Shown piece by piece: positions 1 to 5,399 of a DNA stretch of 64,000 nt. The DNA is from a virus (lineage: Duplodnaviria; Caudoviricetes). Location of the stretch: IMG/VR virus record IMGVR_UViG_3300044719_000253, positions 162,012 to 226,011 of that record, one strand, 5' to 3'. Under the pieces are notes generated by a model. It was given only the letters and a program-made list of their open reading frames with translations. It was not told the origin of the DNA and ran no database searches. The position numbers and the translations under genes are program-made. Position 1 is the first letter of the stretch, and the number at the start of each line of letters is the position of its first letter.

Positions 1-87
1 GTACCCCGTACGTACCGGTAGCTGGTGGTAACCGTTACACGCCACCGTGTGTGAATGCTGAATGCCAACAAAATTTGCGCGCTTGGG
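1..87 (-). CDS. Exon 2 (partial, runs off the window) of the virion RNAP beta subunit
   Basis: Manual translation from 87 down gives PKRANFVGIQHSHTVACNGYHQLPVRTGY. This continues the exon 1 ...SDRDD and parallels bacterial beta EHDDANRALMGSNMQRQ...PLVGTG. Confidence 0.9.
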
Positions 88-453
88 CCTTTGGTCTTCA
101 GGTAGGTCGTTAAGCTACCCCGCACCATTACGTGCCTAGCTCCAGAGTTTTCCTCTGGACGTTGAGACTATATCTTCACCCTCTCCCATGGAGGTGGGGT
201 GCTTCCCATTTCGAGGCCACTTGGTCCCCTATGGACATTTGTCCTAGTCGTTGAAGTTTATCCGTGGCCGCGTTGCGGCTTTAGGATCTTACCTGCTAAA
301 GAGAGTCTTCGACTCTACGGTTCCGCAATCCGCTCCGTTTTCAAACCATCACGAATGATCTTTCGATCTGCGTTGTGGTGGAGCAGCTCTCAGTCGGTTC
401 CAGCAGTTAGAGAAGATTCAGTTAAGCATTCCGGCTTAACTGGACCCCAGTTG
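88..453 (-). ncRNA. Group I self-splicing intron (366 nt, IA-like, no homing endonuclease ORF)
   Basis: Minus strand carries P (AACUGCUGGAA), Q (UUUAGCAGG), R (UUCAACGACUA) and S (AAGAUAUAGUC). P7 is GACUA/UAGUC and P3 is CUUCUC/GGGAAG, with a 9-bp P2. The IGS UGGGGUC pairs with exon 1 GAU (U.G at the splice site) and exon 2 CCCA (P10). Terminal G at 88. Removal restores the frame. Confidence 0.93.
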
Positions 454-3400
454 ATCATCCCGGTCAGAACCGGGAGCGAGCAATACAGCAGTTGACAGCA
501 GCGGTGCGCTACCCATCGTTTCTTTGTTATAGCGGCGTGTCACCCCGCGCAGCGACGTGAACTGCGGGTCGGCGCTGGTGTAGGTGTTAATCGCCACATC
601 CGAACTGTCGACGGTGTCGGTCGAAATCAAACCCATGTCGTTCTTGTGGTACGTCCGGGTTTCTTTCGTCATGGTGCGGCTATTGCGACCACCGGTGCCG
701 TTATACGTCACCGCTTCCTGTTCCTTCAGATTCTGGATCGGGTTGATCTCATTGGTCTGGGCTTTGGAAGCATCGGTCTGAATCGCCGTAAACACCGCAA
801 ACGGGTCCATGTTCAGTGGTGAACGCGATTTACCGGCACTGGCGTTGTGACGACGAATCGCCGTGACCATTTCCGAGTACACTGCTCCGGCCATCCGCTC
901 ATAACCCCGCAAGCGCATGTAGGCACCATCGAATTCATCCGGATGGTCATCGCGCACCAGCATGGTGCCGGCTCGGATCAACAATGCGCGCATGTCGGTG
1001 GGTTCATTCATCTCCACCAGAATATCGTGCGTGATCGGGTCGATGAACATTTGGTAGAACAAGTCCATCTCACGGATGTAACGTACCCCCAATCCATCGG
1101 CTTCCAGCACGTTCAGGTACACCTCTTTGTTATTAAACAGGTGTACATTGTAACGGCGGATGTGACGGTGGTATTCGTTAAAGCCACCCAAGAACAGTCC
1201 GGTGAGGTGATCGTTCTTATCAAAGATGATGGTCTCATCGTTGAACATCACCGGCTCTTCATTTAGACCCAGATCGAGACGGGTCCCTGCTGGGACACGG
1301 CGTACCTTGGACTTGAGCAGCGCCAGCATCGGTTCCAACCCCATCTCGTAGGCCAGAATCACCCCGACCGGAATCGATGCACCGCCGAGTTTCATCACCG
1401 CCACATCGACTGGCGCTTTCCGCCGATCCAACCCCACCAGTTCCTCAAACGACGGGAATTGGTACACGGCTGGTTCCCCCGTACGGCTGGGGCCGACGAT
1501 CGCCACGGTCGAGGATTTACCGATCAACACATAGTGCGTGCCCATGGTCGACTTACCAGCAATGATGGCGCCGTTCTGTTCGTACTTGGCCAGCGCCTCT
1601 TTGCCAAACAGCTCTTCCCGTTTGGTGTGATCGAACGACATGTTGAATGTCAGTTGACCGAGATCACGCGGATAAGCTTGTGGTGTCAGGGTAAAGCTGT
1701 TGAAGGCCGACGCGATCACCGAATACACCCGCGGCACGCTGACTTCGCTGTCCGACATATCGCCGGTGTGACCGTTGGTGATGGTTGGATCGGCATCGTC
1801 CAGCATCTTGGCCATCAGCCCGTTGGTCAACCACATGGCGTAGTTGTTGACTTTCTTTTCACTGCGACGGATGAAGGCTTTGCCGTAATAGCTCGTGAGT
1901 GCCACGGTATCCGGAGCGGTTTTACGGATCGGCAGATCGATCCGCTGTTTGCGCAGTGAGTACGACACGCCGTTGGCCAGGTACGTGCCATCTTCGCCCA
2001 CTACCGGCAGTTTGAAGCGCACAGTCGAAGCCGTACCATCCGTCGGCAACAGACGCACCGTGTAGATGTTGTACGCCCCCATCAGGTCTTCCACTGGCTC
2101 CACGTGATACTCAGTAACGCCATATCCGGCTTGGGCGAAACACATCACCATCGAGGCCACATCGCGTTGCATCACTTCGCTGGTATAACGCCGATCGAAA
2201 TCGAGCAGTGAGGACTTCAGCATCGACTTGTCCGGCACCGTAGGGATATCCGGAATCGCCGTGGATTCATTGACTTTGAGCGTCTCCGGAGGAATCGTGA
2301 TGTATTCCGCCACCGTCATCTTCGGATCGGGGGAAGGCATGGTCTTGTAAGCACTCGCCACCCGTTCGTAGTTACGATACTGCGCCGCCGTAATCGCCCC
2401 CGACAACATCCGGGCCTTGGCCACGCGCAACAGAGCTTCATCATGCGGTAAGCGCTTCAGGGGCGGGATCTCGGCTTCCACCAGTTGCGGGGTGTCGATC
2501 GCGGCTTGACGCTTTTCCAGCAGACTTTGTTCGGTCGCGGTATCGTCTACCGGCTCTGGCGTCAAAACCTTTTCCATCTCGGCCAATTCGGCATTGATGG
2601 TTTCGTCCAACTTCTCATCCACATGCACCGTATCGGCCGTGTCATCCGGTTTATCGTCCACTGGGCTACCCAGTTCTGCCTTCAGGGTCGCCGTCGGGAC
2701 CTTAGCGATACCCGTGGTCGGATCCACCACCGCCGGACCATTGCCGACCTTGGTGACGCTGGCCAATTCTTTCTTGAGGTCTTCCCGATCGTCCGCATCG
2801 AAAACTTGTTTCTCATGGGCATCGAGCTGATCGACTGGCGCTGCCGAGCGCAGCTGCGTGACCGACATGAAGAAACGCAGAATACGATTCTGGAAACGCG
2901 GGGGGTCGATCAGGTTCGGTTTGACGACTTCGTTCGGGAATAGTTCATCTTGGGTCGGTTTGCGCCAGGCGTCCAACATCCCGAGATTGACCGTGGTCCA
3001 TTGTCCTGATTCCAGGAACACCAGGTTAATCCGCGACAGGTATTGGCGCGGCACTAAACCCAACATGGATTGTTTGCGGTTAGCGCCGAACCATTTCCAC
3101 ACTTCGCCCAAGAACAGATGTTCATTGGAGAAGAACATGCGCATCAGACGCTGCACTGGTTTGCGGGGATCCATCGCTTCGTACTGTTGCAAGATCGAGC
3201 GCGGTGGCAAGACTTGCGGCAGATGCATCACCACAAATTGCGGCCGGTCCGTGATTTGGGCCAGACGGGCGATCTCGGTCCATTGGGTGCGTTCGATGTT
3301 GTACCATTCCAGATACTGGTTCATCGGGCCACGCGGGTAACGCACCAGGTGCGGCAGCATGCCGTAGTTATACACCAGCAGGCTGCTGGCGTCCGCCAAC

Positions 3401-3783
3401 ACTCGATCATCGACCGCATTACGGAAACGGCGATAGTGTTGGTGGTACTGCCGAATCACCGTGCCCGGTTGCACTGCTTGTTTGGTGGGTGTACCCAGAA
3501 TCCCCGGAGCCATGTTCAACACGTGATGCACCCAGATGTTGCGGGCCTGGGCTTTTTGCAAGACCTTGTCATCTTTCATGATGGCGGCTGAAAAGCCTTG
3601 CAACACCACATCCGAATCCGACGGACCGTACGCGGTTGGGCTCAAGTGAGCCATGTGCACAATGGCGCGCCGGGGCAGTTGAAACCGTTCCAGACGCCCG
3701 AACTTCGGCGTCATCAGTTGTTCAACGCGGCGCAAGCCATAGGTGCGATAAAAGACATTAAAATCGAGCAGCATAAAGCTCAA
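454..3783 (-). CDS. Virion RNA polymerase beta subunit, exon 1 (phiKZ gp178-like)
   Basis: 1110 codons up to DRDD. Beta-like motifs LRKQRID, LTSYYGK, NPIQNLKEQEAVTYNGTGGR and GLISTDTVDSSDVAIN. Adjacent to the beta-prime gene and tape measure as in phiKZ gp178-181. The ORF-track end at 436 is inside the intron. Confidence 0.88.
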
Positions 3784-5399
3784 TCTCCAGTGAGGTTATG
3801 GAGCACCAGTTCCACGGTGTGCACCGAGGTGCTGGAAATAAAACGACCATCGGTCCCGACATACGCGCGGCGTTTGGTGAAGTACTCTGCCACTTCGGCA
3901 CGGGCTTCGTCCGAGTACGCGATATTACAGTTCATCATGTCGCCATCGAAGTCACCACCGAGTTTCGCCAGGCGAGTCGGGTGTGGGGACATTGACTTCA
4001 TGTACGGACCCGGAATCGGGAATTCCAAGGCGATATGGCTATCGTCCATCGGGGCCCAGTTACGGTCCAATTCACGGCGCCGTTCCGCCACCGTGGTGGT
4101 ACGGACATACAGATTGGTGGGATAAATCGACCCCACCCCCGTGATCGGATAACGGGCGACGGAGGCCGGGTAAGTATTCCAGACACGGTAACCCGACAGA
4201 TAGATCAATTCGCAGAACGTGAGCGGATACACGTCTTCGCGTTTCCGGCTGGGCGGCAACTCATCGATGTCATTGAAAATCTTGAAGGTGCCATCCGGGC
4301 CTTTATAAATCAAGCCCAAATAATGCCCTTCGATTTCCATCGGCAGATCCCGCAATGACTCTTCCCGGAATGCATTGATGACTTTCTCCAACCCTTCGTT
4401 GGTTTGGAAGCGATCGTAGTATTCGTTCTTGAGCGGAATGGCTTTGCGCTTGAGGGTCTTCTTGTCGACCAGATACGCTGGTTGGCTGATATCCGGGAAC
4501 ACTTCTTTGAGCCAGCCATGCTTGAGTTGATACAGGGTGATGGGCAACATTCCTTTGATCAGTTGAAATAAACCCACCGCGGTGTCATTAAAGCCCGCAC
4601 TACCGTGCTCACCCAAATATTGGGTTTCCACAGGTAGGGCGGTGATCACGTTACCGGTGCCGTTCATCACACGACGGCTGGCCCATTTTCCTTGGATCAG
4701 TTTGTTCTTACCGTAGATCAGCCGTTCAAACAGTTCGTAGATTTGCACGAACGTAGTTTGCAGCTTAAAGCGTGCCCGGTCGATCAGTTCCGGATTGGAG
4801 CGAATCGCGATATCCGACAAGGTGTTGGCCACCGCCAGCAGTTGACGGTACATCGGGTTGATCTCGTCTTCGCGAGGACGACCATCGGCACCGATCTCGA
4901 CATCGCGTAAACCCGCTGGCAACACCAGCACTTTACTGGTCATGGCCACGGCTTTGTACTTCTCGATCAAACGAATCGCCAGATCCCGTTTGTCCGAATT
5001 GGTTTTCGAAAAATCGATTTGGTCCCAATACTGACTGAAGTAATGGTAACCGGTTTCGCCATTGACCGCGTCTGAACGTTCGAAATCCTTTTTCTCCGGA
5101 TTCCACAACGCGTATTCGTTGCCGGACATAATCCCGCCATACAGGCGCTTGAGCGAAATCAGGGTATTATAAATGATCGGGTGAAATACCCCGACTTTGA
5201 TATCGATGTAGGCATAGCGGCGGCACCGCACATCGTCACCGACCCGACCGAAGATTCGAGTCGAGAATAACCCCTCAGGATGAAAGTTGTGGGTGATACC
5301 ATCGTACATCGCCAACGAGGTAATGGGAAACAGCCCTGCCAGCTTGGCAGGAGTTAACGCCAAAATCTGGACGTTGAAGGGGACCATCGATTTTTGCAT
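3780..5399 (-). CDS. Virion RNA polymerase beta-prime subunit with catalytic motif (phiKZ gp180-like)
   Basis: Catalytic LGGDFDGD motif, EGLFSTRIFG and VLVLPAGLRD. 4-bp overlap with the beta gene. Confidence 0.92.
   Translation of the reverse strand: MQKSMVPFNVQILALTPAKLAGLFPITSLAMYDGITHNFHPEGLFSTRIFGRVGDDVRCRRYAYIDIKVGVFHPIIYNTLISLKRLYGGIMSGNEYALWNPEKKDFERSDAVNGETGYHYFSQYWDQIDFSKTNSDKRDLAIRLIEKYKAVAMTSKVLVLPAGLRDVEIGADGRPREDEINPMYRQLLAVANTLSDIAIRSNPELIDRARFKLQTTFVQIYELFERLIYGKNKLIQGKWASRRVMNGTGNVITALPVETQYLGEHGSAGFNDTAVGLFQLIKGMLPITLYQLKHGWLKEVFPDISQPAYLVDKKTLKRKAIPLKNEYYDRFQTNEGLEKVINAFREESLRDLPMEIEGHYLGLIYKGPDGTFKIFNDIDELPPSRKREDVYPLTFCELIYLSGYRVWNTYPASVARYPITGVGSIYPTNLYVRTTTVAERRRELDRNWAPMDDSHIALEFPIPGPYMKSMSPHPTRLAKLGGDFDGDMMNCNIAYSDEARAEVAEYFTKRRAYVGTDGRFISSTSVHTVELVLHNLTGD

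What the first reader, a model, noticed from the sequence alone, without database searches (positions are those of the whole stretch)
88..453. Hidden group I intron splits the virion RNAP beta gene at the DD|PKR active-site motif
Seen: the ORF track truncates beta at ...DRDDQLGSS*, but the next 366 nt contain a complete group I core. It has P, Q, R and S elements, P2, P3, P4, P7 and P8. An extra GGAC-AAAU-GUCC hairpin between P7 and P3 suggests subgroup IA. The IGS pairs with both exons. Splicing 454 to 87 gives GAT-GAT-CCC-AAG-CGC, i.e. DDPKRANFVGIQHSH. Established: this aligns to bacterial beta HDDANR, whose Arg (E. coli R678) contacts the incoming NTP. Inference: splicing is essential to make functional vRNAP.
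Basis: partly seen in the sequence, partly recalled or inferred. Interest (0 to 1): 0.85.

Follow-up and report, generated by a model that had tools for sequence, protein, structure and literature searches.

The report
Group I intron in phage polymerase
A 366-base self-splicing-type (group I) intron does interrupt this giant phage's virion RNA polymerase beta gene right after two active-site aspartates, but introns at exactly this spot are already known in phages 201phi2-1 and PhiPA3, so it is a new example of a known thing.

Summary
Window 453..88 (minus strand) is a 366-nt group I intron with no ORF. [quoted passage not shown]

- **Model hit:** Rfam's group I model is the only hit in the window (E 1.3e-7, 43 bits, below the gathering score of 50).
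- **Boundaries:** The closest intron-less relative reads GACCGGGATGAT|CCCAAGCG across the site, identical to our exon edges. In many phages the two halves abut codon to codon (DD|PKR).
- **Structure:** All core helices are present, plus P7.1/P7.2 (subgroup IA type) and P9.1/P9.2. Relatives show compensatory changes in nine helices.
- **Guide:** UGGG|GUC pairs 4 bp with exon 2 and 3 bp with exon 1.

PhiPA3 carries a homologous intron with the gp210 HNH endonuclease at this same site (Birkholz 2024). 201phi2-1 has an ORF-less 336-nt intron there, supported by proteomics and two spliced long reads. HPP-Temi, BUCT660, EL-like phages and two IMG/VR contigs also have the site occupied. This scan has logged many group I introns in jumbo-phage RNA polymerase genes on other DNA.

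Splicing itself was not tested, because no RNA data were available.

The parts
454..3783 (-). Exon 1 of the vRNAP beta-N gene (phiKZ gp178 orthologue), 1110 codons, ending ...GSDRDD. The last base, U454, is the 5' splice-site U.
   Evidence: the phiKZ match is annotated PHIKZ178
88..453 (-). Group I intron, 366 nt, no ORF, 51% GC
   Evidence: Rfam; empty-site alleles; fold; covariation
443..449 (-). Internal guide sequence UGGG|GUC (intron nt 5-11). 449..446 pair with CCCA of exon 2 (P10); 445..443 pair with GAU of exon 1 (P1, with the U454.G wobble).
   Evidence: sequence
421..440 (-). P2 hairpin GUUAAGC-CGGAAU-GCUUAAC (7 bp). PhiPA3 and L013 carry their HNH ORF in the corresponding 5' part, upstream of P3.
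410..415 (-). P3 5' strand CUUCUC, pairs with 207..202
400..406 (-). P4 5' strand (element P) CUGCUGG, pairs with 299..293
300..399 (-). P5 with extensions (about 100 nt). It includes an extra hairpin that is absent from PhiPA3 and present in L021.
293..299 (-). P4 3' strand (element Q) UUAGCAG
256..292 (-). P6 / P6a / P6b
245..249 (-). P7 5' strand (element R core) GACUA, pairs with 170..166
233..244 (-). P7.1 hairpin GGAC-AAAU-GUCC
213..229 (-). P7.2 hairpin
202..207 (-). P3 3' strand GGGAAG
177..201 (-). P8 hairpin
166..170 (-). P7 3' strand (element S core) UAGUC, preceded by J8/7 AAGAUA
141..159 (-). P9 hairpin
100..135 (-). P9.1 (135..122) and P9.2 (120..100). The stretch 97..140 is 43/44 identical to the DNA polymerase intron of rV5-like phages.
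88..88 (-). Terminal G of the intron (omega G)
1..87 (-). Start of exon 2 (PKRANFVGIQHSH...). It continues 1032 nt beyond the window edge (G000:C1 down to 160980), for 372 codons in all.
3780..5399 (-). Context only: the upstream gene for the beta'-N subunit (GGDFDGD motif). Gene order is the same as PhiPA3 gp212-gp211/209.

Best explanation
Window 453..88 (minus strand) is a subgroup IA-type group I intron without a homing-endonuclease gene. [quoted passage not shown]

Inferred mechanism: the pre-mRNA folds into the P3-P9 core. The guide GUC pairs with the exon's GAU so that U454.G marks the 5' splice site. An external guanosine attacks there. UGGG then aligns CCCA of exon 2 (P10), and the terminal G88 is exchanged. 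This joins ...GAU GAU to CCC AAG... and restores one 1482-codon reading frame.

The intron belongs to the lineage that occupies this same site in PhiPA3 (with the gp210 HNH endonuclease), 201phi2-1 (ORF-less) and other phages. Having no endonuclease, it cannot home on its own. It is either a decayed mobile intron or one that never had its own endonuclease.

Shown here: the sequence anatomy, the boundaries and the homology. Inferred: the splicing chemistry and whether it happens.
For: - **Model hit:** The Rfam group I hit is the only one in 64 kb, E 1.3e-7.
- **Protein-level boundaries:** Exon 1's end and exon 2's start are adjacent codons in RP12, RP31, FLC1-1B, RTH11, LucasX and KEN51, and in 10 of 12 IMG/VR relatives.
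- **DNA-level boundaries:** The L006 empty site is identical to our exon edges over 20 nt. Only a 1-nt ambiguity remains, and the U...G rule resolves it.
- **Homology to PhiPA3:** The core aligns with the PhiPA3 intron along its whole length (blastn segments 71-76% identical), and both introns end in G directly before xKR.
- **Covariation:** Compensatory pairs occur in P3, P4, P6, P6a, P7, P8, P9, P9.1 and P9.2 across 8 relatives.
- **Fold:** MFE z = -3.33 with the same helices.
- **Guide:** P10 (4 bp) and P1 (3 bp) are contiguous on the guide, the best combined solution found.
- **Need for splicing:** A stop follows 5 codons into the intron, and exon 2 has no usable start.
- **Precedent:** 201phi2-1 gp273/274 is a joined CDS found by mass spectrometry, with two spliced long reads (PMC11512511). 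PhiPA3 has the same site (PMC11620839).
Against:
- The Rfam score of 43 bits is below the 50-bit gathering cut-off.
- P1 at the homology-defined site has only 3 bp.
- The Rfam alignment prefers a register 3 nt upstream (U457.G9, 4 bp), which would delete one Asp.
- A further 4-bp pairing of the exon with GUUA (intron nt 14-17) competes with P2.
- The source is a metagenomic record estimated 83% complete, so a defective genome cannot be excluded.
Confidence: 0.88

Rival explanations
1. It is an intron, but the 5' splice site is 3 nt upstream, after U457 (GGGAU|GAU...). That register uses the stronger P1 pairing GGAU/GUCC, and the product carries a single Asp (DRD-PKR).
For: The Rfam covariance-model alignment puts its conserved splice-site U.G at U457.G9 with 4 pairs, against 3 for U454. 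GAUGAU is a direct repeat, so both registers can pair.
Against: - All homologues, including bacterial beta, keep both Asp residues, and the empty-site alleles read GATGAT|CCC.
- BUCT660 has GAC GAU at the site, so only the -1 register offers a U there, with a 4-bp GUCG/CGAU pairing.
- L013 has a 5-bp P1 in the -1 register.
- P10 abuts G9 in the -1 register.
Confidence: 0.05
2. It is a decayed, splicing-dead intron remnant. The gene is then either a pseudogene in a defective genome, or the two halves work as separate polypeptides, as other RNA polymerase subunits of these phages are naturally split.
For: - It has no homing endonuclease and scores below the Rfam gathering cut-off.
- The RNA polymerases of phiKZ-like phages are built from split beta and beta' pieces.
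- In PhiPA3 and 201phi2-1, exon 2 happens to begin with AUG.
Against: - Every core helix and joining segment conserved among relatives is intact, with the differences falling as compensatory pairs.
- Both exons keep long open frames with about 90% amino-acid identity to intron-less relatives.
- Our exon 2 begins with CCC, has an in-frame TAG upstream and no start before codon 15, so a separate product would lack the conserved PKR...IQHSH.
- The break lies inside a conserved active-site motif.
Confidence: 0.05
3. It is a chance resemblance: an ordinary intergenic spacer between two genes, not an intron.
For: The score is below Rfam's curated threshold.
Against: - E 1.3e-7 in the whole window.
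- Homology to Rfam-positive introns (65-102 bits) at the same site.
- Covariation in the helices.
- Exact restoration of a conserved frame.
Confidence: 0.01

Closest known systems
Group I intron of Pseudomonas phage 201phi2-1 vRNAP beta-N gene (gp273/274)
   Same: - The host gene is the same (phiKZ gp178 orthologue).
- The insertion point is the same: after the second Asp codon and before xKR (GATGAT|...G|ATGAAGCGG).
- It is ORF-less and of similar size (336 vs 366 nt).
- It has a clear Rfam group I hit (87 bits).
- It has the same P9.1/P9.2 3' module with the UAACGA loop.
- It is annotated as a joined CDS, was found by mass spectrometry, and has two spliced ONT reads (PMC11512511).
   Different: - The sequence is divergent; blastn found no segment at E < 1e-3.
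- Exon 2 starts with Met there and with Pro here.
- Ours has a longer P5 extension.
- The hosts differ: ours is nearest to Burkholderia and Ralstonia jumbo phages.
PhiPA3 gp210 intron in vRNAP beta gp211/209 (Birkholz et al. 2024, PMC11620839)
   Same: [quoted passage not shown]
- The ribozyme core is homologous (blastn segments 71-76% identical; alignable from P3 to the 3' end).
- It ends in G directly before xKR.
   Different: - The PhiPA3 intron is 1352 nt and carries the 330-aa HNH/NUMOD nicking endonuclease gp210 in its 5' part, upstream of P3.
- Ours has only a 20-nt P2 hairpin in its 5' part and no ORF.
- The 226-kb record contains no gp210-like gene.
- The interference-competition role shown for gp210 therefore cannot apply directly.
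phiKZ-type introns in the nvRNAP genes (KTN4 locus next to KTN4_074/075; phiKZ gp55/gp56)
   Same: It belongs to the same intron sequence subfamily: 74.6% identity over 203 nt, and 40/44 in the 3' module.
   Different: It sits in a different host gene and site (the beta' NADFDGD motif). The phiKZ-type copies carry HNH ORFs.
DNA polymerase A intron of rV5-like phages (e.g. Escherichia phage LL12, annotated 'intron-interrupted gene')
   Same: The P9.1-P9.2 module is 43/44 identical to window 97..140. It is a group I intron by Rfam (65 bits).
   Different: It is in an unrelated phage family and host gene. The rest of the intron is only distantly similar.
Classical phage subgroup IA2 introns (T4 td, nrdB, sunY; SPO1; Twort). 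Recalled from the literature, not compared here.
   Same: P7.1/P7.2 lie between P7 and P3'. The intron is inserted at a conserved active-site codon of an essential nucleic-acid enzyme. A stop codon follows shortly after the 5' splice site.
   Different: No sequence comparison was run against them, and the IA2 assignment was not tested against a subgroup-specific model.

Membership tests
Group I intron (Rfam RF00028) | Significant match to the covariance model | tested here: met
   E 5.9e-9 in 3 kb and 1.3e-7 in 64 kb, full-length model 1-253, the only hit in the window
Group I intron (Rfam RF00028) | Score at or above Rfam's curated gathering cut-off (50 bits) | tested here: not met
   43 bits. 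Long insertions (97 nt in P5, 34 nt for P7.1/7.2) and the P1 register cost score. The same-site introns of BUCT660 (37.5) and EL-like HHBS8_1 (39.3) are also below the cut-off, while PhiPA3, L013, 201phi2-1 and HPP-Temi score 68-87.
Group I intron (Rfam RF00028) | Conserved core: P3, P4/P6 and P7/P8 helices with the P3-P7 pseudoknot, and conserved J3/4, J6/7 and J8/7 | tested here: met
   All helices are located. Compensatory changes among 8 relatives fall in P3, P4, P6, P6a, P7 and P8. The joining segments are invariant in alignment A1.
Group I intron (Rfam RF00028) | 5' exon ends in U paired to G of an internal guide (P1); the intron ends in G | tested here: met
   U454.G9 plus 2 Watson-Crick pairs; terminal G88; a 4-bp P10 adjoins. 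P1 is short and a competing register exists.
Group I intron (Rfam RF00028) | Guanosine-dependent self-splicing | not testable with these tools
Subgroup IA | Extra helices P7.1/P7.2 between P7 and P3' | tested here: met
   P7.1 at 244..233 and P7.2 at 229..213 appear in the MFE fold. P7.2 covaries among relatives. No subgroup-specific model (GISSD) was available, so IA1, IA2 and IA3 were not distinguished.
DD-site intron lineage of chimallivirus vRNAP beta (PhiPA3, 201phi2-1) | Host gene is the phiKZ gp178 orthologue | tested here: met
   The junction-spanning query hits PHIKZ178 at 47.7% identity, one place per genome. Gene order matches PhiPA3 gp212-gp211/209.
DD-site intron lineage of chimallivirus vRNAP beta (PhiPA3, 201phi2-1) | Insertion exactly between the second Asp codon and the xKR codons | tested here: met
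   Junctions of ours, PhiPA3, 201phi2-1, HPP-Temi, L013 and L016 printed side by side. For BUCT660 the homology-defined insert sits at the same codons but ends in A, not G, so its exact boundaries are unresolved.
DD-site intron lineage of chimallivirus vRNAP beta (PhiPA3, 201phi2-1) | Ribozyme sequence homology | tested here: met
   blastn segments to PhiPA3 (71-76%) and L013 (76-79%), and an end-to-end alignment. Homology to 201phi2-1 shows only in the 3' module and structure.
Mobile (homing) group I intron | Intron-encoded homing endonuclease | tested here: not met
   There is no minus-strand ORF of 30 aa or more inside 88..453. The plus-strand 98-aa ORF has no Pfam hit. No gp210-like protein is found in the 226-kb record (the record is 83% complete).
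Mobile (homing) group I intron | Sporadic presence among close relatives | tested here: met
   The site is empty in L006 and L008 (about 90% aa identity) and in L007 and L017 (about 80%). It is occupied in 2 of 12 IMG/VR relatives. In the 60-row sample of 291 phage records, 6 rows are split in two pieces and one (2050HW) has two separate places.

The most novel reading that the evidence does not exclude
The endonuclease-free intron may be kept by selection as a shield. By splitting the GATGAT|CCNAAR target, it would make the essential vRNAP gene immune to gp210-like homing endonucleases of co-infecting jumbo phages. This is the weapon shown for PhiPA3 against phiKZ, without the cost of carrying a nuclease. 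The many ORF-less occupants of this one site (ours, 201phi2-1, HPP-Temi, L016) would then be 'vaccinated' alleles rather than decaying parasites.
Probability: 0.2. Interest if true: 0.5.

Novelty: new member of a known kind. Interest (0 to 1): 0.25.

Why it matters
For annotation, the two ORFs (1115 aa with a false QLGSS tail, and 'PKRANF...') should be joined into one 1482-aa vRNAP beta-N protein.

For biology, it adds a Burkholderia/Ralstonia-phage-like, metagenomic member to a growing set of introns that all target the DD|xKR codons of the jumbo-phage virion polymerase. It also shows that ORF-less and endonuclease-bearing versions of one ribozyme lineage coexist at this site.

That set of aligned, same-site introns is useful material for asking whether endonuclease-free introns persist as protection against rival phages' homing nucleases. 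It does not open a new question by itself.

Tried and rejected
- **Close DNA relatives:** megablast against phages found only a 44-nt match, so there is no near-identical sequenced genome.
- **Endonuclease in trans:** a search of the phage's own 226-kb record with PhiPA3 gp210 found nothing. The record is incomplete, so this is weak evidence.
- **ORFs inside the intron:** the plus-strand 98-aa ORF has no Pfam family, and the minus strand has none of 30 aa or more.
- **Co-conversion tract:** 30-nt identity windows against the empty allele L006 show no distinct block next to the junction. The ungapped comparison failed for L008, L007 and L017 because of an indel in exon 1.
- **A conserved guide across same-site introns:** most contain a GUC triplet that could pair with the exon's GAU, but the best P1 solutions differ between introns. 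I could not define one shared P1, and P10 is good only in ours.
- **Covariance model and the count of structure pairs:** I did not build a model of the roughly 330-nt core, because calibration would exceed the allowed time. I did not use the count of structure pairs, because it needs a 509-character typed structure. I counted pairs on alignment A1 in a script instead.
- **Global pairwise identities:** these are inflated by free end gaps and were not used as evidence of homology.

Full report
**1. What is there**

On the minus strand, a long ORF (window 3783..436) ends ...GSDRDDQLGSS*. After GAT GAT at window 454 the frame runs five more codons into a stop. From window 87 a second frame, PKRANFVGIQHSH..., is open to the window edge. 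The window is G000:C1:162012-226011 of a 226-kb IMG/VR record. After fetching the neighbouring DNA, that second frame continues for 372 codons in all.

The 366 nt between the two frames (453..88) match Rfam's group I intron model over its full length. The E-value is 5.9e-9 in 3 kb and 1.3e-7 in the whole window, and it is the only RNA family hit in the window. The score of 43 bits is below the curated 50-bit cut-off.

**2. Boundaries**

In tblastn against sequenced phages, the last exon-1 residue and the first exon-2 residue fall on adjacent codons in RP12 (40516|40515), RP31, FLC1-1B, RTH11, LucasX and KEN51. Among 12 IMG/VR relatives, 10 have a gap of 0 nt between the two matches.

The closest relative, L006 (about 90% aa and 80% nt identity), reads GACCGGGATGAT|CCCAAGCG across the site, identical to our two exon edges.

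A Thermus beta chain aligns EHDD|ANR opposite DRDD|PKR (weak E-value, expected position).

**3. Anatomy**

Window coordinate = 454 minus intron position.

| Element | Window coordinates |
|---|---|
| Guide UGGG\|GUC | 449..443 |
| P2 | 440..421 |
| P3 | 415..410 with 207..202 |
| P4 | 406..400 with 299..293 |
| P5 (long extension) | 399..300 |
| P6/6a/6b | 292..256 |
| P7 | 249..245 with 170..166 |
| P7.2 | 229..213 |
| P8 | 201..177 |
| P9 | 159..141 |
| P9.1 | 135..122 |
| P9.2 | 120..100 |
| Terminal G | 88 |

The unconstrained MFE fold of the whole intron recovers these helices, apart from the P7 pseudoknot, which that method cannot draw. Its z-score is -3.33 and 0 of 100 shuffles fold as well. 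P7.1 and P7.2 between P7 and P3' are the hallmark of subgroup IA. That assignment rests on my knowledge of the Michel-Westhof classification; no subgroup model was available.

**4. More than chance**

I aligned ours with PhiPA3, L013, L021, L023, L031, a KTN4 intron and the LL12 intron (alignment A1). I then projected our helices onto the alignment. Compensatory double changes occur in P3, P4, P6, P6a, P7, P8, P9, P9.1 and P9.2, while the joining segments are invariant. A wider MAFFT alignment of 15 pattern-selected relatives shows the same for P7.2, P8, P9 and P9.2.

**5. P1 and P10**

At the homology-defined site, the guide gives U454.G9, A455-U10 and G456-C11 (P1, 3 bp). Immediately 5' of that, U5-G8 pair with CCCA of exon 2 (P10, 4 bp). 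This is the best combined solution in a scan of the first 80 nt.

This is the weak point. The Rfam alignment chooses U457.G9 (4 bp), which is possible because GAUGAU is a repeat, and that would drop one Asp. I reject that register for four reasons:
- Both Asp residues are universally conserved.
- The empty alleles read GATGAT|CCC.
- BUCT660 has GAC GAU, so only the -1 register offers a U there.
- L013 has a 5-bp P1 in the -1 register.

Only cDNA can settle it.

**6. Is splicing needed?**

This is inference. Exon 1 alone ends inside the active-site motif. Exon 2 has an in-frame TAG 10 codons upstream and no ATG, GTG or TTG before its codon 15, which is after PKRANFVGIQHSH. A separately translated second half would therefore lack the conserved Arg.

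**7. What it is related to**

The host gene is the phiKZ gp178 orthologue: the junction-spanning query hits the feature PHIKZ178, with one place per genome. The gene order, beta'-N followed by beta-N, matches PhiPA3 gp212-gp211/209.

Birkholz et al. [quoted passage not shown] My own reading of the PhiPA3 DNA gives GATGAT|UGUUAUUG...AUCUCG|ATGAAACGC, which is the same site. Our intron aligns with the PhiPA3 core from P3 to the 3' end.

In PhiPA3 and in IMG/VR contig L013 (1393 nt), the HNH+NUMOD ORF lies in the 5' part of the intron, upstream of P3. In ours that stretch holds only the 20-nt P2 hairpin.

ORF-less group I inserts at the same site:

| Phage or contig | Insert length | Notes |
|---|---|---|
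| 201phi2-1 | 336 nt | Joined CDS gp273/274, 'identified using mass spectrometry ... interrupted by a mobile ...' |
| HPP-Temi | 348 nt | |
| BUCT660 | 424 nt | Homology-defined 3' end is A, not G |
| L016 | 337 nt | Followed by a mini-exon and a second intron |

EL-like phages also have an insert right after their DD codons that scores as a group I intron; its exact size was not worked out.

PMC11512511 reports two ONT reads spliced 'exactly matching' the 201phi2-1 intron, together with earlier proteomic support. The kind of element, the host gene, the exact site and the ORF-less state all therefore have published precedents.

**8. Distribution**

The site is empty in the four closest relatives and occupied in 2 of 12 IMG/VR relatives. 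In a 60-row sample spread over 291 phage records, six rows are split into two pieces and one row (2050HW) has two separate places. That is the sporadic pattern expected of a mobile or formerly mobile intron.

No gp210-like gene is present in this 226-kb record, which is 83% complete.

**9. Verdict**

It is a new member of a known kind.

This scan has already logged many group I introns in jumbo-phage RNA polymerase genes on other DNA, and this same stretch was read twice more.

The one reading with some novelty is that endonuclease-free occupants of this site persist as shields against rival phages' homing nucleases. That reading is untested.

Noticed in passing
L016 3323-3999 (IMGVR_UViG_3300042566_001512): In this relative the DD site holds a 337-nt ORF-less intron (3323..3659). 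It is followed by an 11-nt mini-exon CCAAAACGAGU (P-K-R-V, 3660..3670) and a second 329-nt group I intron (3671..3999). Rfam finds two more group I hits in the same locus, at 1457-1892 and 4891-5133, probably in the same gene.
   Followed up: partly
G000:C1:115413-115687 (-), = L018 1501-1775, about 46 kb before the window: A second group I intron in this genome scores higher (65 bits). It splits a beta'-like gene inside the catalytic motif (...GFNADYDG|intron|D...), like the phiKZ gp55 intron. No ORF is evident in it.
   Followed up: partly
window 97-140 (-): The P9.1-P9.2 module is 43/44 identical to the annotated DNA polymerase A intron of rV5-like E. coli phages (59 records), including stem bases that vary freely in other relatives. 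The rest of the two introns is only distantly alike. This suggests exchange of a 3' module between introns of unrelated phages. The 14 'Campylobacter phage' records of about 137-143 kb (one of 75.6 kb) that match look like rV5-type genomes.
   Followed up: partly
window 109-115 and 421-427 (-): The P9.2 loop contains GCUUAAC, an exact repeat of the 3' strand of P2. It could therefore pair with the P2 5' strand GUUAAGC instead. Whether this is a tertiary or alternative pairing or a coincidence is unknown.
   Followed up: no
window 256-292 (-), alignment A1: The two P6 closing pairs are G-C and U-A in our intron. The first pair is C-G in all seven relatives (a flip on both sides). The second is C-G in five, U-A in KTN4a and G-C in LL12.
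   Followed up: no
L037 1798-2221 (Serratia phage BUCT660): The homology-defined 3' end of its same-site insert is A, not G (...GACUAGA|CCAAAG). Its true splice boundaries may be shifted, or the intron may be atypical. It also scores below the Rfam cut-off (37.5 bits).
   Followed up: no
L036, L037, L038, L003 (HPP-Temi, BUCT660, HHBS8_1, PhiPA3 GenBank records): In these records the two exons are annotated as separate 'RNA polymerase beta subunit' or 'hypothetical' CDSs, with small spurious ORFs called inside the introns. Only 201phi2-1 has a joined CDS.
   Followed up: yes
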